Source: Schmidtea nova (Eukaryota). From it: 63,824 nucleotides of DNA. The notes beneath the pieces were generated by a model. That model made no database searches, was not told the DNA's origin, and worked only from the letters and a program-made list of their open reading frames with translations. The DNA is taken from the NCBI GenBank assembly GCA_044892505.1, contig CM097883.1:105276177-105340000 (forward strand), read 5' to 3'. The position numbers and the translations under genes were made by a program. Position 1 is the stretch's first letter. Each line of letters begins with the position of its first letter. Below are positions 14,574 to 35,494 of the stretch, piece by piece.

Positions 14574-14591
14574 TGGGGGCTCAGCCGGGAT
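14574..14591 (+). promoter_or_regulatory. Primer-binding site, tRNA-Pro-like
   Basis: TGGGGGCTCAGCCGGGAT, 16/18 to the classical tRNA-Pro PBS TGGGGGCTCGTCCGGGAT; 6 nt after the LTR end. Confidence 0.8.
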
Positions 14592-17672: not shown

Positions 17673-18546
17673 AACGAGAGATGTCAGTTGAAGTAAAGGT
17701 GAGTAGAGATGAGAATTGAAATGAAGTAGTAAACGTAGTGCGAATAGGAGATAAAGCGAATAGTTGGGAAATAGAGTAGTAGACAGATAAGGGGAGATTT
17801 GAACTCAGAGCCAGAGAAGCCTGAGAAAAGTAAAGGGGATAATAAGAGCGCTGAGCGACAAAGTAATTGGGGAACTGGGGAAAAGTAATTGGTGTATTGG
17901 ATAAAGAATAGATAATTGATACGACTGCATAGATAATTTAAATAGACTTAAAATCAAGGGAAATGGGAAAAATGGGGATCTTCATGAATTATGACTACAC
18001 CCGTGAGAGGGACGAGAAACACGATAACGGGGACGTATCGTGTAAGTGATTATTTGTTTTAAGGAAACAAATCAATCAAGCAATTCAAAGCAATCTAGCA
18101 GTCAGAGCAATCAAAGGAAACAAATCAAAGAAGAAGCAAAGCAAAAGCGGAGTAGAAAATCAGTTGAGAATATAAGCAGTTGAGGAATAGACAAAATTGA
18201 GGGACGAGAAACAAGATCAGGTATAATACCAATCTTAACGGAAGCAGAAAGAAAAGCAGCGAAAAGGACAAGAACAGGTAACAAGCCTAAGCAACAAAAG
18301 AACAAACAAGTAGAGATCAGCGATAATTCGAGTAATAAAGAGAATCAAGAAGAAACCCCAGAAGATCTAGAAGTACAAAACGAAGTAGAGACGATAGACA
18401 GTGAACTAGTCAGGGAAAACAGAACAAGAAGCGAATCAAGAGATAACGAAACAGAGAGTGGTGAAGAAGAAGAGTCGAATTCAGAAACAAGTGGTGAACT
18501 AGAAGTAAAGAAAACTAGTACAGTATTCCAAGATAGTGGAATCGGG

Positions 18547-19600
18547 ATGAGTGATCACAGAGAGGATCTGAGAGAAAAATTCAAGGGCGAACCATTCAAT
18601 GGAGACGCCAGTAGATTGGACACGTTTCTAAAGGAATTTGGCATATTCGTGGATATATGCGGATGGAGTGCAGAAACGTTGGCGAATCGAATCCCGCTAT
18701 ACTTGAAAGATAGCGCATTGGATCTGTATATTGAGAAGAGATCGGGAAGTAATCCACCCAGAACGTGGGAAGCGATCAAGGAGTTCTTCCAACAGACGTT
18801 TGGGATAAACAAAGTGCTGAATGAAGCATTCGATGAGTTCTCAGCAAGAAAACAGAGGAGAAATGAGTCAAATGCGGTGTACGCAAGTGAATTAAGAAAG
18901 TTGGCGAAACTGGCATTCAACAGAGGAAGCCCAGTAGACGAAGAATTGATGACAGCGTTATTCGTACGAGGTCTCAGGAGACCTGACATCAGAGCACAAG
19001 TGGGATGCAAAGGATGTAAAACAGTGGATGAAGCGTTGGAAGCAGCCAACCTATTCGAATTGCATATGGAAATGAACGACATGAGAATTACGGCGGTAAT
19101 GGGAAAAACGACAGAAGATGAAGAACAAGGAAAAAGAAACATGAATCAAAGTATTCCCCATTCGCAGAGATTGTTCAAAGAACCGCCAGCAAGGAAGAAT
19201 AACGGATATATTACGGTGAATACGAATGGAGGAAATAGTTACAATGACAGGCAGAATAGGCAATGTCAGACGTGTGGGAAAAACGGACATTGGCAACAAG
19301 AGTGTTTCCAGAATGTAGCCTGTAAACTGTGTGGACAAAAAGGTCACTCAGAAAATCGATGTTATGGGAAAACGTGTTACACATGTGGAAAAACCGGACA
19401 CATGTCAAGAGACTGTAATCAACAGAGAAGTTGGTCAAACAGTGGAAATAGACAGAATTACGGAAATCGACCAAGCTATGGGAATCAAGGTCAACAACGG
19501 AACAACCCAAATAGCAGTGCAAACGAAGCTAGTATAAAAGAAGCCAAGTTGAGACAGGAGGTATCCAGATTACACGAGATAATCGAAAGCATGGCAAAAG
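18547..19600 (+). other. gag: Gag (capsid + three CCHC zinc knuckles)
   Basis: PFNGDASRLDTFL...F capsid start; CQTCGKNGHWQQEC, CKLCGQKGHSENRC, CYTCGKTGHMSRDC at 19264-19416. Confidence 0.92.
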
Positions 19601-22600
19601 GAAGCCAACAAGCTGCTCAACCAAAGATAAACATGATCCAGCTAATAGAAGCTGAGGCCGAAAGAGAAAATAGAGAAAGCCAACAGAAACATAATCAAGA
19701 ATGGGCTAGAGTACGACGAGAAGAAGAACAAGTCAGGCAACAACGGTTACAACAGTTAAAGAAAGGAAATCCAAGGATCAACATGATGCGAGCAATGATG
19801 GAAGAGAAGCAGCAAGATGAGTCAGACGAATTCGAAGTTAAAGAGAAAAGAAACGAAGAGCAGAGACAAGAAGAAGTGAATCAGGAAGTTCAGGAAGTAG
19901 AAGCCGCAGAGCAGAATCAAAAAGTTGAAGAAATAGAAAAAGAAACGAATCAAGAAGCGGAAGTAAGAATCAAACAAAGAGGAATGTTGGTGATCATGCC
20001 GAATGATCACGTGTGGCGATTCAAATACGATGTAAAAGAAGAAGTGGGAAGATTGTTCAATAAAGTAAATGAGATGATGCCGGGAGTAACGAAACTGCCC
20101 AGAGAAGCATTCCTACAAACAGAGGATTTACCGGAAGTGAAGTTAAAGATGACTGATATATGGGAAGATATGGGAGTAACGGAGACGAAAATAAACGTGA
20201 TGATCATTAGAGAGGTGGAACCGGAGAAAATCCCACCACCAGTGAAACACCAAACTCGGATCAGTCGAATATTCAAAGGGAAAATAAGACGAAGACGGCT
20301 GGAAGAAATAGATGAGTTGGAGAAAAGAATGGGAAAAGCTGAAGTAACAGGAAACGAGAATGAACTAATACAAGAAGTTAGCAAAAACGAAGCGAGACCA
20401 ACCGCGCATATTGGGATGCTGAGACACCCAAGACAAGAGTTGTCAGATGAAGAAGACGACAGCGAAGTTAGCAGTCTGGCAGGAGACATGCTAAAGGAAC
20501 CGGAAAACGAGGATAAAAAGATGGAAGTAGTCGAGACGATAGAAACGATGTCAGTAAAGGAAGAGGAAATTCAGAAGTTGATGGATAATGCGTTAGAAGT
20601 AATCCATAACGAGGAGTATATCGACAAGAAACGATACCGAAAGTTCATACGAGCAGTATGGCAAATGAAGTATAAAGAGTGGTTACAAGAAAGAGAAGTA
20701 AGAGTAATACAGGAGTTCATAGAGAAGTTATTGAAAGAACCACTCAACGAATACGTAATACAAATATGGATAAACGGGTGTTCACCGAGAATCTGGATAA
20801 GGAACCCAATGACGGATGGAATATATCGATGGGTTGAGGACAGATTGGGAAGCTCGTACCAAGACAAATTCATATATTCGGAAAACGGATTGGTGAGAAA
20901 AGGAACGCATATGATAGACACGGGTATCTGGCCAGGAGAAATAACGACGTTATCGATATGCAACACCAAGAAGGAAGAGAACTTACAAGGAATCGTCAAA
21001 GAAGCGAATACGTGTTACGAGATGAGAATAAAACCTCAGTTGCTAGAGGCAAAGGAAAGAATCTTGGCGGAGAATTTGAATACGATGATAGAACAGATCA
21101 TCCAACAAATCAAGAAACATCGAAAGGAATTGACGAAAAGCGAGTATGAGAATTTGAAACAGTGTATCGAGAATATACGAGACACCAGTCAAACGAGACA
21201 CTCAAATTTCAAAACGGATAAGTTAATCGCCAAGATGGGGAAAGAAATGTTTAAACGAGGAGAGGTATCAGATCTGAAGATCACCGTGAGATTACCAAAC
21301 GAAGAGACAAAACAAATTGAGGTAATACCAGATAGTAAAGTGGGAGAAATAGTAGATGTCATCAATGAGACGATATTACAACGAGAACGGGAAGATGAAT
21401 TCGAGGATGACATCGCTATAAAATACAAAGAACATCTACTGAACGAACGTGACGAAAGACGAGCGTATAAAATCGGCATATGGGATAATTATCAGACAAT
21501 ACACGTCATCAGAATGGATGATGTGCCGAGGATAACTACAAAAGATGAAGAAAGGAGAAAGAAACGACAAGAGGACGTTATGCGTAAGTTGAGGCAGATA
21601 GTAGAAATCTATCGGAACTGGCAGATGAAGCCAGAATGGGAGACAATATTGGGAGAATTGGATCTTAACAGACGACGATTGACGCCAGTAGAGAAACAAT
21701 GGGATAACAAAGAGAAATGTTGGAAAGTGAAAAGAGGCGTGTATGAAGAAGATCCGGAAGGAGAAGACAGATATGAACGTAATACGAAACGGATATGTAT
21801 GGTAACAAGGAGGTTATTACCAACGGACTTAGACGGACCAGAAACTGCAGTAATATGGGCAGAATTGGAGAAACAGAAAACGAGTGAATTGATCGAGCTG
21901 ACGAGAGGAAATACTCGGGGAAAAAGACAAACAATAAAAGGCTTAGCACAATTCATAATCTCAAATGGAGAAGACATAACGAACTTGAGAAAAGTAGCTA
22001 AAGCGATAGCAGAATACAAGAGAGTTAACGAGTGGTGTCCAGAGCAACTAGACGATGTAATAAAAAAGTGGAGAAACAAAGAGTTTGCAGAGGAAACGCC
22101 ACAGAAAATACATTTGAGGATAATGTATCCGAATCAGAGAAAAGAAGAGTTTTGGGTGATGCTAACAGAGAAAGTGAAAAGTGTTAAAGAGAAACTGATG
22201 TACGAACTACCATTCCACCTGCAACATCAAGGACGATCGTTGGATAATAATTTAGAAATCTGGCTGACACCAGTACAATTGGATCTAATGAATACGCTAA
22301 CAGTGGCACAAATAGTGGGTCAACCACTGAAGTTTAAAGAGGAAAAGAAAACGAAAGGGAGCCTGAGTACACCAAGTCCGATGAAGTCAACAATGACCCC
22401 AGGAACAAGTTCAGGACAAGCAAGGACAACACCAATAAAAACGAGAGAGAGAACACCGCCAGAAGCGTATGACGTCGATGAGATACTAACAGATAGTGAT
22501 GAGGCGATAGAAGAACTAACGAAGTTAACTCAAAAACCAACGGCGAATATTTTCGACAGAATAATAGAGATGCCAATAACGTCACCAGCAGAAATCGACG

Positions 22601-25600
22601 ATCAAGGAGTGGAACAGGAGGTAGTCATAGAAATGGTAAACGATTCAGAAGACGAGCAAGAACAACCACAGTTTACCCAAGAAATGGAAAGATGGTTAGA
22701 ACAGCGAGCGAACGAAGGAAGAGACGTTACAGAGGAAACCGGAAGAGCAACGAGATTCGTAGAAACCGGAACTGGAATGGAAAAACGACCAAGAGGAAGA
22801 CCAAAGATAGATCCAGCAACAGCAATTCCAAAGACAAGGGAAGAAAGGAGACAAGAGCAATGGGAGATTTGCTTGAAGAAACTGGATAAAATCGCAGAGA
22901 TCAGAGGCAAAGAAGAGAATCAAGTTTGTCAAGGAGAAGAATGGCTCACCAAAACGATAATGGATGTGTTAGCGATAATTGATCCAGAATTAAAGAATCT
23001 GTGGCGGATAAACGAACCCAGTACAAAGGCAAGGATGCTACACAATGCGATAGCACCAATTATGCCGGAATTGATAAAAGCGAAAACAAAATCGAATCAT
23101 CTAGATTGGCAAGGAACCACGATGTTAATAAAAAGGCTACTTAACGGAGCAGAGACGGACAGCAAATATCTAGTAGCAATCTCGTATACGATATACAATT
23201 TGTTAACGCTAAGCCGAGGAAGCCCGAAGTCAAGTCCGATGGGAAGACATATTAAAAATACGGCGATGATTATCGAGAAAGAAATTGAACCATATATCCT
23301 CAGGAAAGGAGGATGGGAAAAGTTCATAAAAGAGAACCAGACAAAAGAAGGGTCTAACGTGATGAGAAAGAAACTTGAAGGAGTATTGAGAGAAATGGAG
23401 AATAGACAAACAATGCAAGGAAACGGAAGATCGACGTTGAATTTAAACTCGATAATCATGATGATGTTAGTATGGTTGTTAAGCACGGAAGGTGTAACAA
23501 CATTTGAGGTATTTGATTGTGATCAAATGAAGTTAGGAGAAAAGTACTCATTGAGAGGTACGGAGCAGTGCAAAGATGCAACTCCAGTAGAGTTGAAAGA
23601 GATTAAAAAAGAACAATGGTACCACGTGTATCAAGAGGCAGAACTAATAAAGACAATGGTGAATGAATGCAAAGTGCAAAAGACGAGATTCGCATTCTAT
23701 TGTGGGAGAGGACATTATTCAGCAATTGTCATGCCAGGAACAGAAAGAGAACCAATCGTGTTGCAAGGGGAAGACTGCGAAGCATTATTTAAACATGGAG
23801 AAGTGACAACGAGAGATAAAATCAAGATAAAAGGAAAGCCAGGAATGATGTTGCAGCAGACGTATTATGTAGCAGGACGGATTACGGGAGGAGAAGGATA
23901 TTGTCAAGGAGAAACCTACCCAATATTCGGAGTACCTGCAACCAACTTAGTAGTGATGGATACGTACATAGTCGAATTGAAAAGCTACGAAGCATTCTTC
24001 GAACCGACCACAGGAGAAATGAAAACGTTATCCATGTGTAAAATTGACAGAAGTATGTGTCAAACGGGAATGTCAACATTGGTGTACAAACCAAAGGTGA
24101 ACGAATGTCAATTACAACTGCTACAAGGAGCAAAGTTCGACGAAATCCAAGGAAATACGTTCCAGGAAGAGGACGATGATGACAAAGCTAGAGCAAAACA
24201 TCTCAAAGAAGCTTTAGAAAACAAAAGACAATTGAGACCAGATCATAGAGAAAAACGAATAGAGATGAGAGCCACACCAACAGTGTTGATAACCACAAAT
24301 CAGGATGTGGGAATGAGATTCATAAAAAGGAAAGCAACCCTTAAGTGCAGTACAACAGTATACGAAACAAACTATCCAGGAATATACGTGTCAAAGCAAG
24401 AAGTGCCGAATGCGAAACCCAAGATCGACACAATGGATATCAAGCTACACTTGTATGTGAATAATAAAATGGATTTCTTATTCCATAGAGGACAAGCCTC
24501 ATTACAAAAAGTGTACTATGATCTGATAAACAACGATTGTATACTGAACCGGGAAATATTGAAGACAAAGTTGGCCGTAGCGATTACGAATCCAGATAGC
24601 GCGATGCCGTTATTACCACTGAGGGAAGGACATTTCGGAAGAGTGGTTGGAGAGGCAATGTACGTATACATTTGCGAAAAGACACACGCATCGCTAGCAG
24701 CAACAACGCAGTTGAAACCTGGACAATGTACAAATGAATTAGAAATCGATTATAAAGGAAAAGTACGATACGTTCAACCGGTGACGAGAATCATCAATCC
24801 ACCAGGGTTCGAACCAAATCCATTCAACTGTAGTAACGCGTACGGACCGCTTTATCAGAAGCCAGATGGCAAATGGGTTATGTTCCCAGGAAGAACCGAA
24901 GTATTAGCACCAAGAGAATTTGAGCTAATGCAGTTGTCAAAAGATAGACAGTTCAGCGACGTAGATGTCTCAAACAACGGAATCTATAGTCCAAAGGATT
25001 TAGAAGCAGCAAGGCAGAATATATTATTCCCGGCAAGAAGAGAAGCATTACTGTCAAATATCGTAACGATAACGGGAGGAACGAATTATCGAGAAGGACC
25101 GAATTACGAACTGTTGTTGTCACCGGCACATTTCAAGAAAGCCACAGAAAATATGATGAAGGCAATGTGGGGAAGATTCCTGATATTTGGACAAATGATG
25201 GCTGGAATACTGGGTGTTATATTGATAATACAAATCGTCAGAGTGATAATAACGCAAATGTTAGCGTGTTTCGACATCTACAAGAGAGAAAAGAAAGTGA
25301 ATTGGAAAATGGTAGTAGGGTTTTTACCATTCCTTGCGAAAACGATGGTGTTGCACGGACACTCAAAAGACATACATCGAATAAAGAGGTTATTGAAGAT
25401 ACTTGCAAAAATGAAAGGAACAAACGAAGATGTCGGAAGGAAATTCAAAAAGATAATGCAAGACGAGCAAGCAAGGCGACAACTCAAGAAAGAAAGGAAA
25501 GGATTATGGGAAAGAGTGAGGGGATACCGAACGCAAGATGATTCAAGTAATGATGATGACGATGACGATCAAGGAGGACAAGCGAATATAAACCAGATTC

Positions 25601-28600
25601 CACAGTATAACGAAAAGAGTGCAGTTGAGAATTGGAGATACAGCGCTCCACCTCAGTCAATGTACAACGAACCGATATACAAAGCGAAGCCGAATATGAT
25701 GCAGATGATGCCGATGACAAGTATATACCCGATAATTCCAGAAGGATGCAAAGTAAAACGAGGTGGAAGTGTAAATTCGTTGGAAGACACGCACACGATA
25801 GCGGTTATGTCCACAAATATGGGACCGATTTTAACAACAACCGTAGAAATAAACGGAAGAGAAATTGAAGCAATGATCGATACAGGCGCGAATATTTCGG
25901 CAATCGACATCAACTATATACCAGAGAAAAACCAAGGAGAAATTGAGAAAACGAATGTACATGTAATCGCGTGCAGTCAAGAGACAGTAGAAGTAGCCGG
26001 AAGATGGTTCGTAAGAATTAAGCATCGAGGTGCAGAGATCAACACGTACATCGCTGTAATACCATCGCTGAGTGTACCATGTATTATTGGAACTGACCTG
26101 ATGCCAGACCTGTTCAAGGAAATCGTAATCGATCTAGGAGCCATGAAGCTAAAAGATAGAACAGGAAAAATCTGCAGAATGAAAGTTAAAGTGGCAAGTG
26201 CGGAACAAATAGTAGTGCCAGCGAGGCACGAAATGATGTGCTATGTCAAGATCGATTCGACAATAAAGGGAGATATGGTATTCGAACCAAGTAAGAAGTT
26301 CGAAGCAAAGAAAGAATTACCAATGGCAAGAGAATTGGTTACGATAAATCAACAAGGAGAAATACCGATCAATCTGGTGAACTTCGACGAAGAGGACAAG
26401 ATAATATATGAGAATGAGAGATTGGGTAAATTGACACCCATGTCCGAAATCGAAATACCAGACAAGAACGAGAAAAGCAAAGACGAATTACCATGGAAAA
26501 TCGACAGTGTGTTGTTAGACGAACGACAAAAAGAACAGTTACAGAAACTGTTGATGGAATATAAAGATATATTCGCAGCATCAGATTTAGATCTGGGAAC
26601 ATGCGATGTAACATTACATACGATACCGTTGACGGACGAAACGCCGATCGCATTAAGACCATACAAACTGGCAGAAGCTCAAAAAGCAGTGGCAGAAGAA
26701 GAGGTACAAAAGATGTTAGATGCAGAGGTCATCGAACCTAGTTGCTCACCCTGGCAATTCCCAGTGGTGATGGTGAAAAAGAAGGATGGAACTCAGAGAT
26801 TCTGTATCGATTACAGACGGTTGAACGCAGTTACGAAAAGAGATACGTACCCACTGCCAGACATAAACGAAATGTTGTTGACGTTACAAGGAGCAGCTTA
26901 TTTCACGTCACTGGATTTAAAAAGTGGATATTGGCAGATCAAAATGAAAGACGAGGATAAAGAGAAGACAGCATTTACAATCGGACGAGATCTGTACCAA
27001 TTCAAGAAAATGCCGTTTGGGTTAACAAACGCGCCAGCATCATTCCAGAGATGCATGAATTTCGTAACACATGGCATAAAACAATGCATGGTGTACATCG
27101 ACGATCTATTGATCTACTCCGCAACATTCGAAGATCACTTACAAGACATCAGAAATGTGTTCGTGAAATTAAGGCAATGGAAACTGAAATTGAAGCCGTC
27201 AAAGTGCGATTGGGCAAAAGAGAAAGTGACTTTTTTAGGTCACATTGTATCGGCAAAAGGAAAAGAACCAGATCCAAGGAATATCGAAAAAGTCAAAGAA
27301 TGTCCACCACCAAAGACAGTGACTCAAATACAAGAATTTTTAGGATTGTGTGGATATTATCGAAAGTTCATCAAGGACTACGCAGGAATATCAAAGCCAA
27401 TGCAAGAATTGGTAAGACAAGATGTGTCGTTTGTATGGGGAGAAGAGCAACAAGCAGCATTTGAAACATTACGAGATAAGCTGATTACAGCACCAATATT
27501 GGTCCATCCAGACTTTAAGAAGCCATTTTTGCTGGCAACAGATGCAAGTGGATACGCAGCAGGAGCAGTACTAGGCCAATTTGACGAAGAAGGCAAGGAA
27601 AGAGTAATTGGGTACTATAGTCGAACGTTCAGAAAACATGAAAGGAATTACTCAGTCACAGAAAGAGAAGCCTATGCGATAATATTGGCAATCAAGCATT
27701 TCAAGTACCTACTGTGGGGTCATGAAATATATATCACGACGGATCATCAACCGCTAGTATGGTTAGGTCAACATAAAGAATCATCAAGTAGATTGATGCG
27801 TTGGGCGATGCAGTTACAAGAATACTCGCCATTCATAAAGTTTAAAGCAGGAAAAGCAAATGCAAATGCGGATTGCATGTCAAGGTTTACATTCCCAGAA
27901 TTGGTGAACCTAAACGCTCTGAAAATATGTGCATTAATAGCGGAGGATTTGGATTTCAGCGAACTAAGGAAAGATCAACTCGAAGACGAGGAGTTGGGAT
28001 TGATCAGCAAGTATTTGAAAGAAAGGGAAATAGAAATATTCGGCAAGAGCCAAACGTTGCGCGAACATATGCAGAAATATCAGCACCGATACGTGATGGA
28101 AAAAGGATGGTTATTGATACAGGATGGAGAACGGAGATTGATGTGCTTACCTGCGAATAGGCGAAAGGAAATCATGACTCAATATCATGACGGAAAATTA
28201 GGCGGACATATGTCAACAAAAAAGACAATCGGGAGACTGAGACAAAAGTACTTTTGGCCAACCATGGAAGATGATGTAAAAGAATGGATAAAGAACTGCT
28301 TAACCTGTGCAACAAGAAAGAACGTCGGAACAAAGTGGAAAACACCACTAAAACCTATGCCAATACCTGCAGAACCAATGGCGACGATAGCAATGGATGT
28401 AGTTGGACCATTGCCGGAAAGTTTAAAGGGGAATCAATATATATTAGTAGTCACGGACTATCTAACAAAGTTCCCAGAAGCATACGCAATACCGGATCAA
28501 AAGGCAAAAACAGTCGCGAGAATATTGGTGGAAGAGATATGCTGCAGATACGGAACACCAAAGAAAATCCTAACGGATCAAGGAACAAATTTCATGAGTG

Positions 28601-31600
28601 AAATATTGGACGAAGTTACGAATTACTTCAGAATTGCGAAATTACGAACATCCCCATACCATCCACAAACGAACGGTCAAACGGAAAGATTCAATGGAAC
28701 ATTAATACGCATGTTGTCAAATTACGTCAGTAAACATCAGACTGACTGGGACGAGTATATCAACTTGTGTTTAATGGCATATAGAATGTCAATACATGCA
28801 GCAACAAAGCTAAGTCCATTCCAACTGATGTACGGAAGAGATTGCAACTTACCGATCGATTTAGAATACCAACCACCATTATCACAGTACATGGAGGTTG
28901 ACGATTACGTTACAAAGTTCAAAGAAAGAATGCAAGAAATCTGGAAAACGGCGGAACTGAACATCAAGTTCTATCAAGAGAGTTACAAGGATCTGCATGA
29001 TCAGAAAAAGAATGTGAAAGCACATGATTTAAAAGTTGGAGATTGGGTGATAATCGAAACACCAGAGATAATACCCGGTACGGTCAAGAAACTCCAACGA
29101 CCAGGCAAAGGGCCATATGAAATCACAACAGTAAACGAAAATAATGTGCGAGTACGATTGGTGAACAATCCATTGGTAAGACCAATATACGTGAATGCAT
29201 GTCGATGCAGGAAAATACCAAAGACAGCAACTCTATCACCAGAGAAACGGGTAATGACAAGATCACAGACGGCGAGAATCAGTATGTTGCGAGTACAACA
29301 AAAGCCGCAAACAAGTCTAGAGGACAACCGAAGGGAGATAATAGACATCAAAGAACTGGCAAGGAAAACCAGAGAAATTATACCGGAATGGAGGTGGTGG
29401 CACGATTTCAATATACTGTCAGAAGTTCGAAAGAATGTAATGGAGTATGCAAAAGACAGAACAGCACATCCAATAACAAGGACGCTGCTAGAGGAGATCC
29501 CTCAGACATTGAATCTACAAGACAAAGACGGTAATACCGCGTTGCACAATGCAATCAAGCACAGTGGAAACGAAAAAGTGAAGGAAATTGTAGGGATGAT
29601 ACTCGAAGGTGGAGGAGAAATTGACAAAGTGAATTGGGAAGGAATTACTCCACTTATGATGATGACGATTCATGGAAGAAAAGATGAAATAATCAAGCTA
29701 TTCGGAAACACCAGATCGAATTGGTTGACAAAAGATAAAGAGGGACGAACATTCTTGAATCATGCAATTGATAGAGCGAATCACCGAATACTGAAGTATA
29801 TCACGGAAAATGCCACGTGGGAAATCGATGAACTAACTAGAGGATCGATCATGAAACAAGCAATCGGAGTAAGAAATAGTAAAACCTGGAGAATATTGCT
29901 AAAGTGGAAACGACCAGAAGGAGATTCGTGGGTCATAGATTGTAATGAAGTGTTCATAAGGGGAGAAAATGCGTTACTGAAACATCTATTAGAAGTAACA
30001 TACGATCCAAAAACACTTGCAGTGTTGATAGCGAGAGATACGCTACGGGTTAGTGAGAACCCAAGAGAATACAAGCTGGAAGACAGAAAGAAAGAATTAT
30101 TCGGATTAATCAAGAAATGGTGTGATAAACAATGGAATCCGGATATGAGCTTCGAACATTTCTATGACATCCAAAAGCAGCACAAAGAAATAAGCAAGCG
30201 ATATAAAGAGCTGGTGGAAGCATTGAAATATGGACAATTCTTCAGACAAGCAGTGTATCAAGACCAACGAATGAAACAGATGCAAACGCGAATAAGAAGC
30301 AAAGCAGTGTTGTTCAATGCAAAAGCGGAATATCAAGAGAGATTAGACGCAATCATAGCAAAAGCACAGGAAAGATTATCGGAATTCAAGGAGAATAAAA
30401 ACTCGTTGGAAATACTAGGAGCAATTACAGAGAAAGTACACAGATACGCACAAGGAGATTATAACGAGAGTGACATAGAAACGATCAAAAATCAAATGCC
30501 AGTGGCATTCCTATTATCAAAGGATGGGAGATTGCCGATACACTGGGCATTACGTCGAAAGAAAGAAAACGAAGTGCTAGAAATAACGAAAGCAATGGTC
30601 AAATGCGAAGCGGACATGAATACGGTTGATGATAACGGAGATACAATCATGATAATCGCAGCAAGAAAGAAGACGAGCCTGAAAGTACTAAACGAGTTAT
30701 ACGAAGCAGGAGCAAAAATCGAAGGGAAAAATGGAAAGAATAATTCCATCATAGATATCGCAATACAGTGGAACAACTTCGAGATGATCAAGTTCATAAA
30801 GTCCATCAAGAGACAAGAGGACATGGAATATCTGGCAAATAACGTAAAGAAGTTCAGTCTGACAGTAATGATACACGACATAGAGAAAACAAGAGCATTA
30901 CTAACATGGGTGAATCCGATCACCAAGGAACCGGCATTCAAGATCAATGACCATATAGAACAGAATCAGAATTGGTGTATCAGAAGCGCGTTGTTAAGAC
31001 ACAAAAAGCCAGAGATAGTAGAAGAATTCTTAAAGAGAAGAGATTTGAAGTTCACGAACAATCCAAAGGAACCCGAACGAACGGGAAGATGGAAAGACTT
31101 GTTCAGAAAATATGTGAATGAATGGACAAATGCCAAAGAAGCGATCAAGCAAAGTAGACTAGAAGACAGGGAACCATCCAAGGAGATGGAAATACGTGAA
31201 TTCGAGTCTAGCACACTCGCGGTTCAAGCGTATGAAAGATTGATTGAAGAAATTAATGTCGAGGACGACATTTTCAAAGGACCAGGGGGTGGTTACAGAG
31301 ATTTCGACGACAAAAGCAACAACGAAGAGAACAACGAAGACAATGACAACAAAAGAACGGAGGATAATGAAAAAGGAAGACAAGAAGAACCGAAGCCAAC
31401 GAGAAACGACAAGAAAAGAGAAGCAGAAGAACAAGAAAACAGTGGAACAAAAGACGAACATGCGAACTATGGAAAACGAACAGGAAGTCTACTTTTGAGA
31501 CCAGAAATGTTGTGTATCGCGATATTGTTAACAATCATCGGACAAGGAGAAGCCAAGAAACAATACGTCACGCTGGAAATAATCAGAGGAAACGAAGTAT

Positions 31601-33429
31601 ACGAAAGAATATGCTGGAAAGAGAACATGAGGAAAAACGATACGCTGAAGTGTATATTGTCAGATCTGAAGCGAGACGTCATCCAAATCAAGGGATTGGA
31701 AAAAGAAAAGTCATACATAATATGCGCAATAAAGCAGAGAGGAGAACCAAAAGCACCTCAAGTAACTGAATGTCAATTATATAAAGCAACAGAAGCGCTG
31801 AAAATACAGAAATGGATTGGAAAAAGAAGCGAAGAGACAACGAGAAGAACAGAAGTGGAACCAGAGAAAGGGAAGAATCAAACGGAAGCAGAAGAGGGAA
31901 TCAGAAACCGAACAGAGAAAGAAAGAATAACCAAAAATTCAGCGGGCAAATTAACATTCCAACCGGAATTGATATGTGTAGCATTAATACTAATCCTCAT
32001 TAAGAGAATCATGGAGGACATAGATATCAGCGTGATGACGTTGGTAAATATCCAAGACCAACGAACAACGAACGGAAGATGTTGGGGACGAAACAATGAA
32101 GTAATTGGAATCAGTGAAACAAGAGAAAGTCGAGAGGCAGAGACAAATGAGGAAATCGAGATAACTGAAATGGAAACAGAGAAAACATGTGAACTATGTC
32201 TCATGGAAAAAGCAACAAACGGAAACAGACCAGGAACAAGCGAGTGTAAAGTGTTCCAAGCAAAGGAGATAATTGAGTTCCCAAAAAGAAAGAAACAAGA
32301 TCAAGAAATGATTGCGAATGAAGTAGTAACCGTGGAGATAAAAAACATTGGTCGGAGAACAATTGGGATGTGTTGGAGAAAATACATCGGAGTATCGACC
32401 AGTCACGTACTACCGCAATGCAGAACGAGAGAACGAGGAATTCCGTTTCAACTAAATGGATTCGAAGTCGGACAAGCTTACGAAATTTGCATAATCCGAA
32501 GAATAAGAGAAATAATACAAAGAAGCCTGGAGTGCAAACTGTACAAGACGCCAGAGCAAATTAACGGAACAAGAACGATTGAAATGGGAAGAAGTCGACG
32601 GAGGAAAAGAAAGTCAAGAAGAACCACGACAACCAACAGTCAAGGAACTCAACAGACAACAGAAGGGACGTCAACAAAAAACGAACCGGAATCAACGACT
32701 CTGATAATATGGAAGATCCATAAAAAGGTCCTAGAAATCTGTTGGACATTAATGCCAAACAGTATGAGAGAGTCTCCACGAAACTGTCAAAAGACATCAA
32801 ATGACAAAAGGGAAATAATCGAGGTAGAAATGAGGAGGTTGAAAACAAACGCAGAATACGAAGTGTGTGCAATCGAAGAAGTAGACGCACAAGGAAATCA
32901 ACAAGAAAGGTGCGAAACCTATTACACGCCAAGGAACATAACGATAAAAGGGGGAACCCGCAAGTTAGAATTCCGAGAATTGAGTCAGAAAAGAGAACAA
33001 ACAGAGACGGAGGAAATACTACAAAATCAACAAGAAAGATGGGAACCCGAGAAAGTGATCGAAGAAGTCAGACAGAGACAACAACAATATGAACAATGGG
33101 AAGCAGAATGGAAAGGTCAATATGGCGTGATGATAAACCAAAGTGAAACTCCGAAGAGGAGCGTTGGGAAAACAATAATGGGATTAATCAGCATGGGAGT
33201 ATTCATAGGGTGTATACCGCTGATAACGATCATGATAGTATGTTGGAGATATGGCATGAGAAATAAGACCATAGCAGTAAAATGGCCAGACGTAAAGGTC
33301 ACGAACTACAACATAAAACTACCAAAAGGAGTACGAGAGGAACTGAAAAGACGATCAAAACACGAAGAGATGTGGGTACAGATCGAGGACGAAGAACTGT
33401 ACGAAGGAAAACCAGTGATAGTTGTATAG
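18547..33429 (+). CDS. 4960-aa Gag-Ubl-Bcl2-Env-Pol-Ank-FN3 polyprotein
   Basis: Single open frame; motifs listed in the sub-features. Confidence 0.96.
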   Translation: MSDHREDLREKFKGEPFNGDASRLDTFLKEFGIFVDICGWSAETLANRIPLYLKDSALDLYIEKRSGSNPPRTWEAIKEFFQQTFGINKVLNEAFDEFSARKQRRNESNAVYASELRKLAKLAFNRGSPVDEELMTALFVRGLRRPDIRAQVGCKGCKTVDEALEAANLFELHMEMNDMRITAVMGKTTEDEEQGKRNMNQSIPHSQRLFKEPPARKNNGYITVNTNGGNSYNDRQNRQCQTCGKNGHWQQECFQNVACKLCGQKGHSENRCYGKTCYTCGKTGHMSRDCNQQRSWSNSGNRQNYGNRPSYGNQGQQRNNPNSSANEASIKEAKLRQEVSRLHEIIESMAKGSQQAAQPKINMIQLIEAEAERENRESQQKHNQEWARVRREEEQVRQQRLQQLKKGNPRINMMRAMMEEKQQDESDEFEVKEKRNEEQRQEEVNQEVQEVEAAEQNQKVEEIEKETNQEAEVRIKQRGMLVIMPNDHVWRFKYDVKEEVGRLFNKVNEMMPGVTKLPREAFLQTEDLPEVKLKMTDIWEDMGVTETKINVMIIREVEPEKIPPPVKHQTRISRIFKGKIRRRRLEEIDELEKRMGKAEVTGNENELIQEVSKNEARPTAHIGMLRHPRQELSDEEDDSEVSSLAGDMLKEPENEDKKMEVVETIETMSVKEEEIQKLMDNALEVIHNEEYIDKKRYRKFIRAVWQMKYKEWLQEREVRVIQEFIEKLLKEPLNEYVIQIWINGCSPRIWIRNPMTDGIYRWVEDRLGSSYQDKFIYSENGLVRKGTHMIDTGIWPGEITTLSICNTKKEENLQGIVKEANTCYEMRIKPQLLEAKERILAENLNTMIEQIIQQIKKHRKELTKSEYENLKQCIENIRDTSQTRHSNFKTDKLIAKMGKEMFKRGEVSDLKITVRLPNEETKQIEVIPDSKVGEIVDVINETILQREREDEFEDDIAIKYKEHLLNERDERRAYKIGIWDNYQTIHVIRMDDVPRITTKDEERRKKRQEDVMRKLRQIVEIYRNWQMKPEWETILGELDLNRRRLTPVEKQWDNKEKCWKVKRGVYEEDPEGEDRYERNTKRICMVTRRLLPTDLDGPETAVIWAELEKQKTSELIELTRGNTRGKRQTIKGLAQFIISNGEDITNLRKVAKAIAEYKRVNEWCPEQLDDVIKKWRNKEFAEETPQKIHLRIMYPNQRKEEFWVMLTEKVKSVKEKLMYELPFHLQHQGRSLDNNLEIWLTPVQLDLMNTLTVAQIVGQPLKFKEEKKTKGSLSTPSPMKSTMTPGTSSGQARTTPIKTRERTPPEAYDVDEILTDSDEAIEELTKLTQKPTANIFDRIIEMPITSPAEIDDQGVEQEVVIEMVNDSEDEQEQPQFTQEMERWLEQRANEGRDVTEETGRATRFVETGTGMEKRPRGRPKIDPATAIPKTREERRQEQWEICLKKLDKIAEIRGKEENQVCQGEEWLTKTIMDVLAIIDPELKNLWRINEPSTKARMLHNAIAPIMPELIKAKTKSNHLDWQGTTMLIKRLLNGAETDSKYLVAISYTIYNLLTLSRGSPKSSPMGRHIKNTAMIIEKEIEPYILRKGGWEKFIKENQTKEGSNVMRKKLEGVLREMENRQTMQGNGRSTLNLNSIIMMMLVWLLSTEGVTTFEVFDCDQMKLGEKYSLRGTEQCKDATPVELKEIKKEQWYHVYQEAELIKTMVNECKVQKTRFAFYCGRGHYSAIVMPGTEREPIVLQGEDCEALFKHGEVTTRDKIKIKGKPGMMLQQTYYVAGRITGGEGYCQGETYPIFGVPATNLVVMDTYIVELKSYEAFFEPTTGEMKTLSMCKIDRSMCQTGMSTLVYKPKVNECQLQLLQGAKFDEIQGNTFQEEDDDDKARAKHLKEALENKRQLRPDHREKRIEMRATPTVLITTNQDVGMRFIKRKATLKCSTTVYETNYPGIYVSKQEVPNAKPKIDTMDIKLHLYVNNKMDFLFHRGQASLQKVYYDLINNDCILNREILKTKLAVAITNPDSAMPLLPLREGHFGRVVGEAMYVYICEKTHASLAATTQLKPGQCTNELEIDYKGKVRYVQPVTRIINPPGFEPNPFNCSNAYGPLYQKPDGKWVMFPGRTEVLAPREFELMQLSKDRQFSDVDVSNNGIYSPKDLEAARQNILFPARREALLSNIVTITGGTNYREGPNYELLLSPAHFKKATENMMKAMWGRFLIFGQMMAGILGVILIIQIVRVIITQMLACFDIYKREKKVNWKMVVGFLPFLAKTMVLHGHSKDIHRIKRLLKILAKMKGTNEDVGRKFKKIMQDEQARRQLKKERKGLWERVRGYRTQDDSSNDDDDDDQGGQANINQIPQYNEKSAVENWRYSAPPQSMYNEPIYKAKPNMMQMMPMTSIYPIIPEGCKVKRGGSVNSLEDTHTIAVMSTNMGPILTTTVEINGREIEAMIDTGANISAIDINYIPEKNQGEIEKTNVHVIACSQETVEVAGRWFVRIKHRGAEINTYIAVIPSLSVPCIIGTDLMPDLFKEIVIDLGAMKLKDRTGKICRMKVKVASAEQIVVPARHEMMCYVKIDSTIKGDMVFEPSKKFEAKKELPMARELVTINQQGEIPINLVNFDEEDKIIYENERLGKLTPMSEIEIPDKNEKSKDELPWKIDSVLLDERQKEQLQKLLMEYKDIFAASDLDLGTCDVTLHTIPLTDETPIALRPYKLAEAQKAVAEEEVQKMLDAEVIEPSCSPWQFPVVMVKKKDGTQRFCIDYRRLNAVTKRDTYPLPDINEMLLTLQGAAYFTSLDLKSGYWQIKMKDEDKEKTAFTIGRDLYQFKKMPFGLTNAPASFQRCMNFVTHGIKQCMVYIDDLLIYSATFEDHLQDIRNVFVKLRQWKLKLKPSKCDWAKEKVTFLGHIVSAKGKEPDPRNIEKVKECPPPKTVTQIQEFLGLCGYYRKFIKDYAGISKPMQELVRQDVSFVWGEEQQAAFETLRDKLITAPILVHPDFKKPFLLATDASGYAAGAVLGQFDEEGKERVIGYYSRTFRKHERNYSVTEREAYAIILAIKHFKYLLWGHEIYITTDHQPLVWLGQHKESSSRLMRWAMQLQEYSPFIKFKAGKANANADCMSRFTFPELVNLNALKICALIAEDLDFSELRKDQLEDEELGLISKYLKEREIEIFGKSQTLREHMQKYQHRYVMEKGWLLIQDGERRLMCLPANRRKEIMTQYHDGKLGGHMSTKKTIGRLRQKYFWPTMEDDVKEWIKNCLTCATRKNVGTKWKTPLKPMPIPAEPMATIAMDVVGPLPESLKGNQYILVVTDYLTKFPEAYAIPDQKAKTVARILVEEICCRYGTPKKILTDQGTNFMSEILDEVTNYFRIAKLRTSPYHPQTNGQTERFNGTLIRMLSNYVSKHQTDWDEYINLCLMAYRMSIHAATKLSPFQLMYGRDCNLPIDLEYQPPLSQYMEVDDYVTKFKERMQEIWKTAELNIKFYQESYKDLHDQKKNVKAHDLKVGDWVIIETPEIIPGTVKKLQRPGKGPYEITTVNENNVRVRLVNNPLVRPIYVNACRCRKIPKTATLSPEKRVMTRSQTARISMLRVQQKPQTSLEDNRREIIDIKELARKTREIIPEWRWWHDFNILSEVRKNVMEYAKDRTAHPITRTLLEEIPQTLNLQDKDGNTALHNAIKHSGNEKVKEIVGMILEGGGEIDKVNWEGITPLMMMTIHGRKDEIIKLFGNTRSNWLTKDKEGRTFLNHAIDRANHRILKYITENATWEIDELTRGSIMKQAIGVRNSKTWRILLKWKRPEGDSWVIDCNEVFIRGENALLKHLLEVTYDPKTLAVLIARDTLRVSENPREYKLEDRKKELFGLIKKWCDKQWNPDMSFEHFYDIQKQHKEISKRYKELVEALKYGQFFRQAVYQDQRMKQMQTRIRSKAVLFNAKAEYQERLDAIIAKAQERLSEFKENKNSLEILGAITEKVHRYAQGDYNESDIETIKNQMPVAFLLSKDGRLPIHWALRRKKENEVLEITKAMVKCEADMNTVDDNGDTIMIIAARKKTSLKVLNELYEAGAKIEGKNGKNNSIIDIAIQWNNFEMIKFIKSIKRQEDMEYLANNVKKFSLTVMIHDIEKTRALLTWVNPITKEPAFKINDHIEQNQNWCIRSALLRHKKPEIVEEFLKRRDLKFTNNPKEPERTGRWKDLFRKYVNEWTNAKEAIKQSRLEDREPSKEMEIREFESSTLAVQAYERLIEEINVEDDIFKGPGGGYRDFDDKSNNEENNEDNDNKRTEDNEKGRQEEPKPTRNDKKREAEEQENSGTKDEHANYGKRTGSLLLRPEMLCIAILLTIIGQGEAKKQYVTLEIIRGNEVYERICWKENMRKNDTLKCILSDLKRDVIQIKGLEKEKSYIICAIKQRGEPKAPQVTECQLYKATEALKIQKWIGKRSEETTRRTEVEPEKGKNQTEAEEGIRNRTEKERITKNSAGKLTFQPELICVALILILIKRIMEDIDISVMTLVNIQDQRTTNGRCWGRNNEVIGISETRESREAETNEEIEITEMETEKTCELCLMEKATNGNRPGTSECKVFQAKEIIEFPKRKKQDQEMIANEVVTVEIKNIGRRTIGMCWRKYIGVSTSHVLPQCRTRERGIPFQLNGFEVGQAYEICIIRRIREIIQRSLECKLYKTPEQINGTRTIEMGRSRRRKRKSRRTTTTNSQGTQQTTEGTSTKNEPESTTLIIWKIHKKVLEICWTLMPNSMRESPRNCQKTSNDKREIIEVEMRRLKTNAEYEVCAIEEVDAQGNQQERCETYYTPRNITIKGGTRKLEFRELSQKREQTETEEILQNQQERWEPEKVIEEVRQRQQQYEQWEAEWKGQYGVMINQSETPKRSVGKTIMGLISMGVFIGCIPLITIMIVCWRYGMRNKTIAVKWPDVKVTNYNIKLPKGVREELKRRSKHEEMWVQIEDEELYEGKPVIVV
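20752..22320 (+). other. Three ubiquitin-like domains (20752-20958, 21271-21516, 22105-22320)
   Basis: By-eye alignment to ubiquitin, e.g. LKITVRLPNEETKQIEVIPDSKVGEIVDVI...YQTIHVI and IHLRIMYPNQRKEEFWV...KVKSVKEKL...HQGRSLDN...NTLTV; none ends in GG; first copy weakest. Confidence 0.6.
22940..23340 (+). other. Bcl-2-like domain
   Basis: EPYILRKGGWEKFIKE resembles BH2 (WIQ.NGGWD.FV); preceding helical pattern and spacing fit BH1-BH2, but NWGR is not conserved. Confidence 0.65.
23443..25400 (+). other. env: Envelope/fusion glycoprotein (chuvirus-glycoprotein-like, class III type)
   Basis: Internal signal peptide IIMMMLVWLLSTEG, Cys-rich ectodomain starting FEVFDC, TM at 25171-25272; collinear homolog at 58900-60790 (-). 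Confidence 0.8.
25820..26170 (+). other. Aspartic protease
   Basis: EAMIDTGANISAI (DTG at 25879); CIIGTDLM. Confidence 0.93.
26590..27880 (+). other. pol: Reverse transcriptase and RNase H
   Basis: SPWQFPVVMVKKKDG..RFCIDYRRLN, MPFGLTNAPASFQ, VYIDD (27094); LATDASG, TERE, TDHQPL, NADCMSR. Confidence 0.97.
28000..29220 (+). other. Integrase (HHCC, DDE, GPY)
   Basis: HDGKLGGH...CLTC; AMDVVGP; LTDQGTNF; NGQTERFN; GKGPYEI. Confidence 0.96.
29500..30810 (+). other. Ankyrin repeats, two blocks (~29500-29880, ~30510-30810)
   Basis: QDKDGNTALHNAI, VNWEGITPLMM, DKEGRTFLNHAI; KDGRLPIHWAL, DDNGDTIMIIAA, GKNNSIIDIAI. Confidence 0.9.
31483..33429 (+). other. C-terminal membrane module: internal signal-like segments, four FN3-like repeats, TM (33175-33246), cytoplasmic tail
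   Basis: Repeated CW...L....Y(E/I)(I/V)C...EC..Y.T at ~31560-31790, 32020-32260, 32320-32550, 32690-32930; hydrophobic EMLCIAILLTIIGQGEA and ELICVALILILIK. Confidence 0.65.
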
Positions 33430-33903: not shown

Positions 33904-33992
33904 TGAATAAGCGGAAAATTGTGTAAATACGTGTAAATAAAGAACCAGAAAAAATCAAAATATGGGGAAATTGATGTAAATATTGTTAAAGA

Positions 33993-35405
33993 ATGAGAGC
34001 GGAAAGTGAAGCAGACTACCAAACAATCGAAATTCTGAGAGGAGAAAATCGACAATGGGGAGTAAATGTGACGTGTGTAAAGTGTAAAAATTTACTGTTA
34101 AAACCGAGACAAACGGAATGTGGATGCAGGATGTGCACCAAGTGTATATTACAGATAATCAGTGAAAGTGAGACAAGAAAGTGTCCAGAGTGTGACGATA
34201 AACTACTGATCAACGAGACAAAACCAGATAAAGCAATACAAAAGGAGATCTGGAAGATAAAAACAGAGTGTATAAACCAACCATGCGAATGGAAAGGACA
34301 AATAATCGAGCTAAGACAACATCTGGAAAAATGCGAAAACAAGAAAGCGACATGTGAAAAGTGTCAACAGACAATAACCATCAAGCAGTCGAAAGGTCAC
34401 AAGAATGAGTGCAAATCAGAGATAATAGAGTGTCAATACTGTGAACAAAGAGAGACGAGAGAAGTAATCGAAACAGAACATCTCAACGTAGCAGAAGAGA
34501 AAGTGTGCGGAAAATTCAGAGGAATTTGTCCAAGTAATTGTGGAACCGGAGAAGAAGTGATGTTGAGAGAACATTGGGAACAATGCGAATCAAGACCAAG
34601 AAAGTGCGTATGGAGTAAACAAGGATGCGTAGTAAAGAAAACGAGCAAAGAAATGAAAGAGCATTTAGAAACAGAGACGGTACAACACGCAGAGATGTTA
34701 ACAGAAAATTTGAACGGAATGGAACAAACCATACAGAAACTGGGAAAGGAAATCGAATCTCAGAGGATAATGACGGAGTTATTACTGGAAACGAGAGAGC
34801 AATTCGAGCTCACCAGAGAGAAAATGATGGAGAAAATCAAAGTCATAGAGACATTGGTAAAAGAAGTAAACGTGCGACATCAAATGTGGATACGAGATAC
34901 AGAGGATATCGAGAATTTACCTGTTGCACCATATGTATAGAAAATCAAGAACTTCAACGACAAGTTCGCAGCAGCAAAAGCAGGAAGTCAAGTGTCGGTA
35001 ACAAGTCCACCATTCTATCTGTGGAAAAATGGATACAAAGTTCGAATGAGAATTTATCCAAATGGAGATGGATCAGGAAAGGAAACGCATGTGTCATTAT
35101 TCTTTGCGTTGTGTAAAGGTGGTTACGACGACATATTAGAATGGCCACTAGAAACAAAGGCTATAATGAGAGTGAAAAACTCGAAAGAAACAATAGCGAG
35201 AGTATTCAAAATTGATGGTAAGCACGAAGCTTACAAAAGACCAACCACAGAATGTTCATTAGCGACTGGAGAACCAAAATTCATACCACACCAAACAATG
35301 TGGGAGATGTTGTACGACGACAACTTGTATGTAGAGTTGAAGATCGAAAAGAAAGCAAGTACAACAGTGATGAACACGAAGTCAACGAAAGGATGGTTAG
35401 AGTAG
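33993..35405 (+). pseudogene. TRAF-family protein (RING, TRAF zinc fingers, coiled coil, MATH) with one in-frame TAG at 34938-34940
   Basis: CVKCKNLLLKPRQTECGCRMCTKC...CPEC; PYV*KIKNF; SPPFY...GYKVRMRIYPNGDGSGKETHVSLFF...YDDILEWP; both listed ORFs share one frame. Confidence 0.92.
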
Positions 35406-35494
35406 TCAGAGTGAACGACCCTGTAAATAAAGTGTAAAAATCGACGACAACAATAAACGTATAGTATAACAAGTGTAAATTTGTAAATTACAGA

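What the first reader, a model, noticed from the sequence alone, without database searches (positions are those of the whole stretch)
23443..25900. Envelope glycoprotein located between gag and pol in one reading frame
Retroviruses and errantiviruses place env after pol as a separate spliced ORF. Here signal peptide, ~570-aa Cys-rich ectodomain and TM sit in frame upstream of the protease. The polyprotein must thread cytosol (Gag), lumen (Env), cytosol (Pol), lumen (FN3), like a flavivirus polyprotein, and would yield Gag, Env and Pol in equal amounts. The ectodomain resembles chuvirus-type glycoproteins, which are known to have been captured by some BEL/Pao elements.
Basis: partly seen in the sequence, partly recalled or inferred. 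Interest (0 to 1): 0.9.

Follow-up and report, generated by a model that had tools for sequence, protein, structure and literature searches.

The report
Planarian Burro retroelement with internal envelope
This is a young copy of a giant flatworm retrotransposon of the Burro kind, whose single huge protein carries a herpes-gB/chuvirus-like fusion protein between Gag and Pol; that order is already published, but here the envelope is strongly conserved, looks swapped as a block between sister families, and is joined by a second predicted surface protein.

Summary
The window holds a 29.4-kb Ty3/gypsy element (3,273-bp LTRs, 99.94% identical) with one 5,081-codon ORF: Gag, Bcl-2-like domain, internal signal, Env, TM, PR-RT-RH-IN, ankyrin, second signal, FN3-like repeats, TM. 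Env matches Pfam Monjiviricetes_fusion (E 9e-74). Its model (pLDDT 89) matches herpes gB and chu-like virus G, so it is class III. In-frame env between gag and pol was reported for planarian Burro (PMC6431247), and gB-type GAG-ENV-POL elements in flatworms, nematodes and bryozoans (PMC13524379). Not found in the texts I could read: (1) Env is as constrained as RT/IN (pN/pS 0.02). (2) Env through TM is 93-94% identical to a sister family that is 72-76% identical on both sides, in 10 of 10 copies, which points to a cassette swap. (3) A second signal + ectodomain + TM ends the ORF in the four families whose C-terminus I read. Inferred: four membrane crossings, Gag cut from Pol by signal peptidase, Pol tethered to Env's tail. 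Translocation, fusion, particles and equal amounts are untested.

The parts
11295..14567 (+). 5' LTR, 3,273 bp, TG...CA, inserted in a (TA)n tract
14574..14591 (+). Putative primer-binding site; resembles a tRNA-Pro PBS (recalled, not tested)
15112..15585 (+). Upstream accessory ORF with a C-terminal RING finger (IAP-like position); no BIR hit in this ORF
18184..33429 (+). Single polyprotein ORF, 5,081 codons stop to stop, first Met 18547
18694..19422 (+). Gag: Retrotrans_gag domain and three CCHC knuckles
22951..23331 (+). Bcl-2-like domain (weak: family profile hits Bcl-xL at E 0.003; a relative hits Pfam Bcl-2 at E 0.0018, below the cut-off)
23437..23502 (+). S1, internal signal sequence; predicted signal-peptidase cut just before Phe at 23503 (inferred from small residues at -1/-3 in relatives)
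23503..25191 (+). Class III fusogen ectodomain (chuvirus-G/gB-like), 14 Cys, one sequon, one furin-like site that is not conserved
25192..25260 (+). TM1, stop-transfer segment of Env
25312..25350 (+). Conserved short amphipathic segment after TM1; too weak for a second TM on the scales used
25351..25836 (+). Env cytoplasmic tail and linker to the protease
25837..26118 (+). Aspartyl protease (DTG at 25879)
26773..28665 (+). RT, RNase H, integrase zinc finger and core, in Ty3/gypsy order
29527..30798 (+). Ankyrin repeats
31489..31554 (+). S2a, second internal signal-like segment
31558..32937 (+). FN3-like repeats (three clear, one degenerate), each clear repeat with four conserved Cys; polybasic furin-like site near 32590-32610
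31951..32004 (+). S2b, duplicated signal-like segment inside the FN3 region; topology unresolved
33172..33243 (+). TM2, followed by a 61-aa tail
33990..35405 (+). TRAF-like accessory gene (RING, zinc fingers, MATH), interrupted by an in-frame stop in this copy
35465..36655 (+). Coiled-coil accessory ORF
36513..37199 (+). Small ORF with signal-like and TM-like segments (by eye)
37402..40674 (+). 3' LTR, 2 mismatches to the 5' LTR

Best explanation
A recently inserted member of the planarian Burro group of giant env-bearing Ty3/gypsy elements. One mRNA is translated into one polyprotein that crosses the ER membrane four times. (1) Gag and the Bcl-2-like domain are made in the cytosol. (2) S1, the captured glycoprotein's own signal peptide kept in frame, opens translocation; signal peptidase cuts after it, so the Gag precursor is left anchored by the S1 stub. 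(3) The class III ectodomain folds in the lumen with seven disulfides. (4) TM1 stops transfer, so PR-RT-RH-IN-ankyrin are made in the cytosol as the tail of Env. (5) S2 opens translocation again for an FN3-like type I membrane protein anchored by TM2. Gag and Pol thus end on different chains, and Pol would reach particles through Env's tail or by sharing the membrane patch, then be freed by the protease. Env is kept functional, most likely for membrane fusion in cell-to-cell spread. Shown: ORF, domains, fold, conservation of signals and cysteines, purifying selection, Env-limited identity between sister families. Inferred: translocation, cleavage sites, disulfides, Pol packaging route, fusion, particles.
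For: Fold: AF2 model pLDDT 89.2. All listed Foldseek PDB hits are herpesvirus gB (best E 3.7e-14). Best viral hits are chu-like virus G (E 5.8e-37, TM up to 0.72). The wide search ranks gB first (Z 9.3, rmsd 12.2, 437 aligned), then thogotovirus GP and rhabdovirus G. 36 of 37 PDB hits of the family profile are gB (best E 0.003). Signal: in 19 of 23 proteins with 60 or more residues before the Env start motif, the preceding 30 residues reach KD 2.3 or more; so do 46 of 75 stand-alone relatives at their N-terminus, and 0 of 120 cytosolic control windows (52 of 154 sequences lacked the motif, 4 were too short). 14 Cys in 10 of 10 full-length ectodomains. Selection among 20 RT-chosen copies, shared variants: Env pN/pS 0.02 (139.5 S, 11.5 N), IN 0.01, RT 0.00, TM1 0.00, S1 0.04, S2a 0.05, FN3 0.09-0.19. 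Env, TM, protease order recurs in database polyproteins. A second signal + ectodomain + TM is present in four genome families and in P0003 and P0006, less clearly in P0013. Burro features match.
Against: No experimental or RNA evidence for any step. SignalP and DeepTMHMM were not available; I used hydropathy scales only. S2b (31951-32004) is present in at least 18 of 20 copies and constrained (pN/pS 0.06); if it stops transfer, the downstream FN3 repeats would be cytosolic, which conflicts with the simple four-crossing model for this family. A conserved hydrophobic segment follows TM1; if it crossed the membrane, Pol would be luminal (it scored 7.6 against 0.1 for TM1). Counts for short segments are small (1-6 changes), and 'shared' variants include changes on the window copy's own branch. 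The Bcl-2 call is weak. A 1:1 Gag:Pol output is a poor fit to capsid assembly unless Pol is turned over (recalled for single-ORF elements such as Tf1).
Confidence: 0.72

Rival explanations
1. The ORF is continuous on DNA, but splicing or another RNA step yields separate Gag-Pol and Env messages, so the polyprotein need not thread the membrane and the amounts are unequal.
For: Errantiviruses use a spliced env message (established knowledge). S1 would also work as an N-terminal signal: it aligns with the N-terminal signal peptides of stand-alone relatives and has Met codons close by.
Against: The frame is kept across both junctions in many copies and in several families that are 37-97% identical in Env, which splicing would not require. 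The tail between TM1 and PR is under purifying selection (pN/pS 0.06).
Confidence: 0.13
2. The topology is as proposed, but Env is not used for free infectious particles: it serves budding into and exit from internal membranes within one cell, or fusion between neighbouring cells, and the FN3 protein is a host-modulating surface decoy, in line with the Bcl-2, TRAF, RING and ankyrin cargo.
For: The element carries much apoptosis and ubiquitin cargo. A Burro1 IAP-like region is reported second-hand to protect stem cells (PMC13465017 citing Lee et al. 2026). No particle data were found in 10 searches.
Against: Constraint on Env as tight as on RT/IN and an Env-limited exchange between sister families are what selection on entry would give; they do not exclude this reading.
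Confidence: 0.25
3. The high Env identity between the window's family and its sister family reflects constraint on the RNA (structure or an overlapping frame), not recombination.
For: An alternative-frame ORF (24990-25541) overlaps the end of Env.
Against: Within the family, synonymous variation in Env is not reduced (139.5 shared changes on 344 sites, against 45 on 147 in RT and 91 on 202 in IN). The edges are sharp, at about 23480-23530 and 25390-25550. Against family 2, Env pS is 0.61-0.73, near saturation like the flanks.
Confidence: 0.08
4. Env is a non-functional passenger that only stays open because it lies inside the Gag-Pol frame.
For: Any in-frame passenger would be kept free of stops.
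Against: An open frame does not explain pN/pS 0.02, 14 conserved cysteines, a conserved signal and TM, or dN/dS near 0.03 against the sister family.
Confidence: 0.02

Closest known systems
Burro / GYPSM1 giant gypsy-like elements of planarians (PMC6431247, section 7, citing Jurka 2007 and Grohme 2018)
   Same: About 30 kb with long LTRs; one ORF of about 5,000 aa; Gag with CCHC knuckles; BCL2-like motif; env in frame between BCL2 and PR; ankyrin; MATH/TRAF in the ORF or in an accessory ORF.
   Different: The review ties the env to gypsy Env and to mononegavirus glycoproteins; here it is class III by fold. MATH lies in a downstream accessory gene. The text read names no internal signals, no second membrane protein and no FN3 (its Fig. 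2A could not be seen).
HSV/gB-type GAG-ENV-POL 'errantiviruses' Smed_errantivirus_1-6 and relatives in Macrostomum, Prostheceraeus, nematodes and bryozoans (PMC13524379)
   Same: gB-type Env; GAG-ENV-POL order; many near-identical copies; by eye the same eight-cysteine pattern over domains I/II as category Platyhelminthes_C1a, nearest to Smed_errantivirus_5.
   Different: The main text has no hit for 'polyprotein', 'in-frame', 'fibronectin' or 'ankyrin'. It notes ectodomains flanked by two TM segments but gives no model of polyprotein threading in the passages read.
Nematode non-canonical ERVs (Sacco et al. 2022, seen only as a title and citation in PMC13524379)
   Same: Env before Pol; RNA-virus glycoprotein captured by a metavirus.
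   Different: Different host phylum; GAG-ENV-POL elements are not one clade according to PMC13524379. Paper not read.
Chuvirus-type (Monjiviricetes) glycoproteins and mosquito BEL/Pao elements carrying them (Dezordi 2020, as cited in PMC13524379)
   Same: Same Pfam family and fold; same signal-peptide position before the YDC motif.
   Different: In the viruses it is a stand-alone ORF of about 650 aa; in the BEL/Pao-like hit P0060 it follows the DUF5641 domain. The window's Pol is Ty3/gypsy.
Flavivirus, hepacivirus and alphavirus polyproteins (recalled; works-like comparison only)
   Same: Capsid, internal signal, luminal glycoprotein, stop-transfer, cytosolic enzymes, cut by signal peptidase.
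   Different: Unrelated enzymes and fusogen class; here the first signal comes about 1,630 residues after the first Met, and translocation reopens after about 2,000 cytosolic residues.

Membership tests
Burro giant LTR elements | Total length about 30 kb with long LTRs | tested here: met
   29,380 bp with 3,273-bp LTRs; slightly under the '>30 kb' of PMC6431247
Burro giant LTR elements | Single ORF1 of about 4,900-5,100 aa | tested here: met
   5,081 codons stop to stop, 4,960 from the first Met
Burro giant LTR elements | Retrotrans_gag followed by 2-3 CCHC knuckles | tested here: met
   PF03732 27.7 bits over cut-off 24.1; three CCHC
Burro giant LTR elements | env in frame between BCL2-like motif and protease | tested here: met
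Burro giant LTR elements | BCL2-like motif | tested here: inconclusive
   Profile of four family members hits Bcl-xL at E 0.003 over 24 positions; no direct hit for the window copy
Burro giant LTR elements | Ankyrin repeats; MATH/TRAF domain | tested here: met
   Ank_2 E 3e-17; MATH E 4e-26 in an accessory gene, inside ORF1 in family 2
Burro giant LTR elements | Ubiquitin/SUMO-like, dUTPase-like and BIR motifs | tested here: inconclusive
   No significant Pfam hit; the review found the first two with HHpred, which is not on hand
Burro giant LTR elements | Direct sequence or tree placement with Burro1-4/GYPSM1 | not testable with these tools
   Reference sequences are not held; by-eye match to Smed Env rows in a supplement only
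Metaviridae (Ty3/gypsy) | PR-RT-RH-IN order with gypsy-type RNase H and H2C2 integrase | tested here: met
Belpaoviridae (BEL/Pao) | BEL/Pao-type domains (Peptidase_A17, DUF1759, DUF5641; markers recalled) | tested here: not met
   None among the Pfam hits at E <= 0.05 over the whole ORF
Class III viral fusogens | gB/G/GP64-like fold with a long central helix | tested here: met
Class III viral fusogens | Trimer | not tested
   Three ectodomains exceed the size limit of the complex tool
Class III viral fusogens | Membrane-fusion activity | not testable with these tools
   needs an assay
Classical insect errantiviruses | gag-pol-env order with a separate F-type env | tested here: not met
   Env lies before Pol, in frame, and is gB-type

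The most novel reading that the evidence does not exclude
Burro-type elements are active two-glycoprotein retrovirus-like agents with an assembly logic unlike that of retroviruses. Signal peptidase separates Gag from Pol, Pol is packaged as the cytoplasmic tail of a trimeric class III Env (which also brings protease domains together), and a second FN3 surface protein cut from the same polyprotein serves attachment or immune decoy. Env cassettes, bounded by the signal cut and the membrane anchor, move between families under selection for entry.
Probability: 0.3. Interest if true: 0.75.

Novelty: new member of a known kind. Interest (0 to 1): 0.4.

Why it matters
The gene order is known, so it is not a discovery. 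What remains open is how such an element can assemble at all: an Env between Gag and Pol breaks the Gag-Pol fusion by which retroelements normally package their enzymes. This genome offers several young, high-copy families with predicted cut sites, strong selection on Env, an Env-limited exchange between sister families and a conserved second membrane protein. That makes the questions 'are Burro elements infectious?' and 'how does Pol enter the particle?' testable in a planarian, where Burro1 is expressed upon loss of SMEDWI-2 (PMC8532177, passages).

Tried and rejected
Single-sequence fold of Env failed (pLDDT 30); the alignment-based fold replaced it. Direct phmmer of Env against PDB found nothing. 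Two word-index protein searches found nothing (Env; C-terminal module); weak evidence. Sequencing runs: no RNA holder listed. Four runs of unknown kind, kept as contigs, showed no GT..AG joint among the 15 joints displayed (11 more not shown); this says nothing on expression or splicing. Idea of env-only, non-autonomous copies: prompted by roughly double contig depth over Env and 296 Env probe hits against 141, 139 and 132 for Bcl-2, PR and FN3 probes. First-look candidate counts (759 Env, 766 RT, 387 pre-Env) were not informative. Rejected for the sample taken: 10 of 10 extra loci fetched, of about 155, are gag-env-pol elements of a sister family. Complex prediction of Env with one FN3 repeat: no answer. 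Furin cleavage of Env as a family feature: the REKR site is in 1 of 12 ectodomains examined, so not conserved. Slippery-site scan near the junctions gave three heptamers; no frameshift is needed, so not pursued. Atlas search of the Bcl-2 region gave no usable hit. Ubiquitin-like and dUTPase-like regions were not confirmed by Pfam. No tRNA gene in the window. Earlier scan findings: three look-ups, all empty. Grohme 2018, Sacco 2022 and Lee 2026 were not held.
Full report
Observation. The finding lies inside one reading frame, 18184-33429 on the + strand, 5,081 codons from stop to stop, with the first Met at 18547. Two 3,273-bp LTRs (11295-14567, 37402-40674) differ at 2 positions and bound a 29,380-bp element inserted in a (TA)n tract, so the insertion is very recent. 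Pfam gives, in order: Retrotrans_gag, CCHC knuckles, Monjiviricetes_fusion (E 8.9e-74), aspartyl protease, RT, RNase H, integrase, ankyrin. The frame is shared: 22 of 71 scored copies have stop-free frames of 5,076-5,091 aa (counted by eye; these were chosen by best Env match out of 3,773 candidates). Of 20 copies chosen by RT likeness (every second row of the 40), 15 carry Env start, PR and RT in one ORF. Probe counts suggest about 130-140 copies of this family.

What Env is. An alignment of 98 relatives gave a model of mean pLDDT 89.2. All Foldseek PDB rows listed are herpesvirus gB (best E 3.7e-14). The best viral models are chu-like virus glycoproteins (E 5.8e-37; TM up to 0.72). The search that does not lean on Foldseek ranks gB first (Z 9.3, rmsd 12.2, 437 aligned), then thogotovirus GP and rhabdovirus G; these Z values alone are middling, and the case rests on the agreement of the methods. 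The sequence profile also finds gB in 36 of 37 PDB hits (best E 0.003). Env is a class III fusogen of the chuvirus-G kind. Fusion activity and trimer were not tested.

What is already known. [quoted passage not shown] PMC13524379 (passages, second part of section 6, and supplement rows) reports HSV/gB-type GAG-ENV-POL elements in Nematoda, Bryozoa and Platyhelminthes, six of them in Schmidtea mediterranea with up to 215 copies; it cites Sacco 2022 for nematodes and Dezordi 2020 for chuvirus-like env in mosquito BEL/Pao. By eye, the window's Env has the eight-cysteine pattern of their Platyhelminthes_C1a rows and is nearest to Smed_errantivirus_5. The host is therefore most likely a planarian (inference from homology). 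Also read as passages: PMC8532177, PMC11410931, PMC13238120, PMC13465017; PMC10187017 gave no passage. Not held and not read: Grohme 2018, Sacco 2022, Lee 2026; Jurka 2007 was not looked up. Their figures and supplements may already show the TM segments, the FN3 module or a topology model. My statements that something is not in print rest on ten searches and term counts in the two key papers.

Topology, first crossing. In 19 of 23 proteins with 60 or more residues before the Env start motif, the 30 residues before it reach KD 2.3 or more. So do 46 of 75 stand-alone relatives at their N-terminus, against 0 of 120 control windows from the cytosolic parts of the window's ORF (of 154 sequences, 52 lacked the motif and 4 were too short; five of the 23 are BEL/Pao-like or merely long N-termini, not gag-env-pol). 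Small residues sit at -1/-3 of a cut just before the motif, as A-x-A in family 2 and in the sister family. S1 is thus the captured glycoprotein's own signal peptide, kept in frame (inference). All 10 full-length ectodomains examined have 14 Cys, which fits an oxidising compartment. TM1 is 23 residues long, with more basic residues on its C-side. The conserved segment after it scores far worse as a TM (7.6 against 0.1 on a recalled biological scale), so Pol is read as cytosolic.

Topology, second module. After integrase (and ankyrin where present) a second signal-like segment, an ectodomain and a final TM close the ORF in the window's family, in family 2 (L022), in two shorter families of 3,401 and 3,393 aa (L046, L048), and in database proteins P0003 and P0006, less clearly in P0013. 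The sister family's C-terminus was not fetched. Family 2 passes Pfam fn3 (29.3 bits, cut-off 25). Seven repeats from the two long families share four invariant Cys and weakly hit Tie2 and fibronectin FN3 structures (E 0.01-0.1). The atlas lead is FN3 at 0.89. In the two shorter families the ectodomain has no FN3 hit. The window's family has a duplicated signal-like segment, S2b, inside this module, found in at least 18 of 20 copies; whether it is translocated, cut or stops transfer is unresolved and is the main weakness of the four-crossing model for this family.

Selection. Among the 20 RT-chosen copies compared pairwise with the window copy, variants seen in two or more copies give pN/pS 0.02 for Env (139.5 synonymous, 11.5 non-synonymous), 0.00 for RT, 0.01 for IN, 0.00 for TM1, 0.04-0.06 for S1, S2a and S2b (1 non-synonymous change each), 0.09-0.19 for FN3 and 0.27-0.33 for linkers. 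No copy has a stop in the ectodomain; one has a frameshift there and two lack part or all of it in the fetched stretch. Env is not a passenger.

Env exchange. An Env probe hit 296 places, about twice the 132-141 of three other probes. Ten of ten extra loci fetched are gag-env-pol elements of a sister family. They are 72% identical in DNA before Env, 93-94% across Env, TM1 and the amphipathic segment, and 75-76% after it. Synonymous divergence is 0.25-0.47 in this block and 1.2 or more, mostly saturated, outside it; dN/dS inside is about 0.03 (two copies). The edges lie near the predicted signal cut (about 23480-23530) and just after the membrane anchor (about 25390-25550). The simplest reading is an in-frame exchange of the Env cassette between families, followed by spread of both; its direction was not determined, and no tree test was run.

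Mechanism. Best reading (0.72): one polyprotein, four crossings, signal-peptidase cuts after S1 and S2, protease cuts in the cytosol. Two consequences are inferred. Gag is parted from Pol during translation and is left on the membrane by the S1 stub, which also gives the Bcl-2-like domain a tail anchor. Pol hangs on Env's cytoplasmic tail, 131-391 residues from the conserved motif before the TM in 12 relatives, so Env could carry it into particles and Env trimers could bring protease domains together. Several database relatives have two or three protease domains, which may bear on this. 'Equal amounts' holds only for primary translation. Rivals: spliced messages (0.13), Env used inside cells or between neighbours rather than on free particles (0.25, compatible with the topology), passenger (0.02).

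Verdict. A real feature, correctly read, but a new member of a described kind: the order and the gB-type fold are both published for planarian elements. The additions are the signal and topology evidence, the conserved second membrane protein, the measured constraint and the Env-limited exchange. Interest 0.4; the bold case (Pol packaged through Env in a two-glycoprotein infectious agent) has probability 0.3 and would deserve 0.75.

Noticed in passing
L049-L058 (G000) against window 23503-25350: A sister family of about 155 loci shares Env at 93-94% DNA identity but only 72-76% in the flanks: apparent Env cassette exchange with edges at the signal cut and after the membrane anchor.
   Followed up: yes
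L021-L024, L045-L048 (G000): At least three further gag-env-pol families in the same genome (one with MATH inside ORF1; two shorter ones of about 3,400 aa without ankyrin), all ending in signal + ectodomain + TM.
   Followed up: partly
C-termini of L022, L046, L048 ORFs: End in ETLV or ETFV, like class I PDZ-binding motifs (motif recalled); the window copy ends in VIVV.
   Followed up: no
P0001, P0002, P0003, P0014 (and Pfam hints in P0004, P0008): Two or three aspartyl-protease domains in relatives, in tandem after Env; in P0003 one more after integrase.
   Followed up: partly
window 33990-35405: TRAF-like accessory gene (RING, zinc fingers, coiled coil, MATH) interrupted by an in-frame stop in this copy; its state in other copies was not checked.
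   Followed up: partly
window 15112-15585: Upstream RING ORF, where an IAP-like Burro region might be expected; no BIR hit in it.
   Followed up: partly
window 36513-37199 and 35465-36655: A small ORF with signal-like and TM-like segments, and a coiled-coil ORF, before the 3' LTR.
   Followed up: no
window 12686-14182 and 38793-40289: ORFs of 249 and 206 aa inside each LTR, with no Pfam hit in those scanned.
   Followed up: partly
window 16433-16938 and 17187-17679: Tandem repeats of 19 nt and of about 85-90 nt in the long leader before gag.
   Followed up: no
window 21271-21513 and about 22110-22340: Two ubiquitin-like-looking segments in the Gag-to-Env linker (by eye); not confirmed by Pfam.
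   Followed up: partly
window 42870-44684 (+): MULE transposase ORF with FLYWCH and SWIM fingers, outside the element.
   Followed up: partly
window about 55295-63792 (-): A second, fragmented Ty3/gypsy element (RT, RNase H, integrase in 55295-57736).
   Followed up: partly
window 62-930: Long inverted repeat with arms 95-97% complementary.
   Followed up: no
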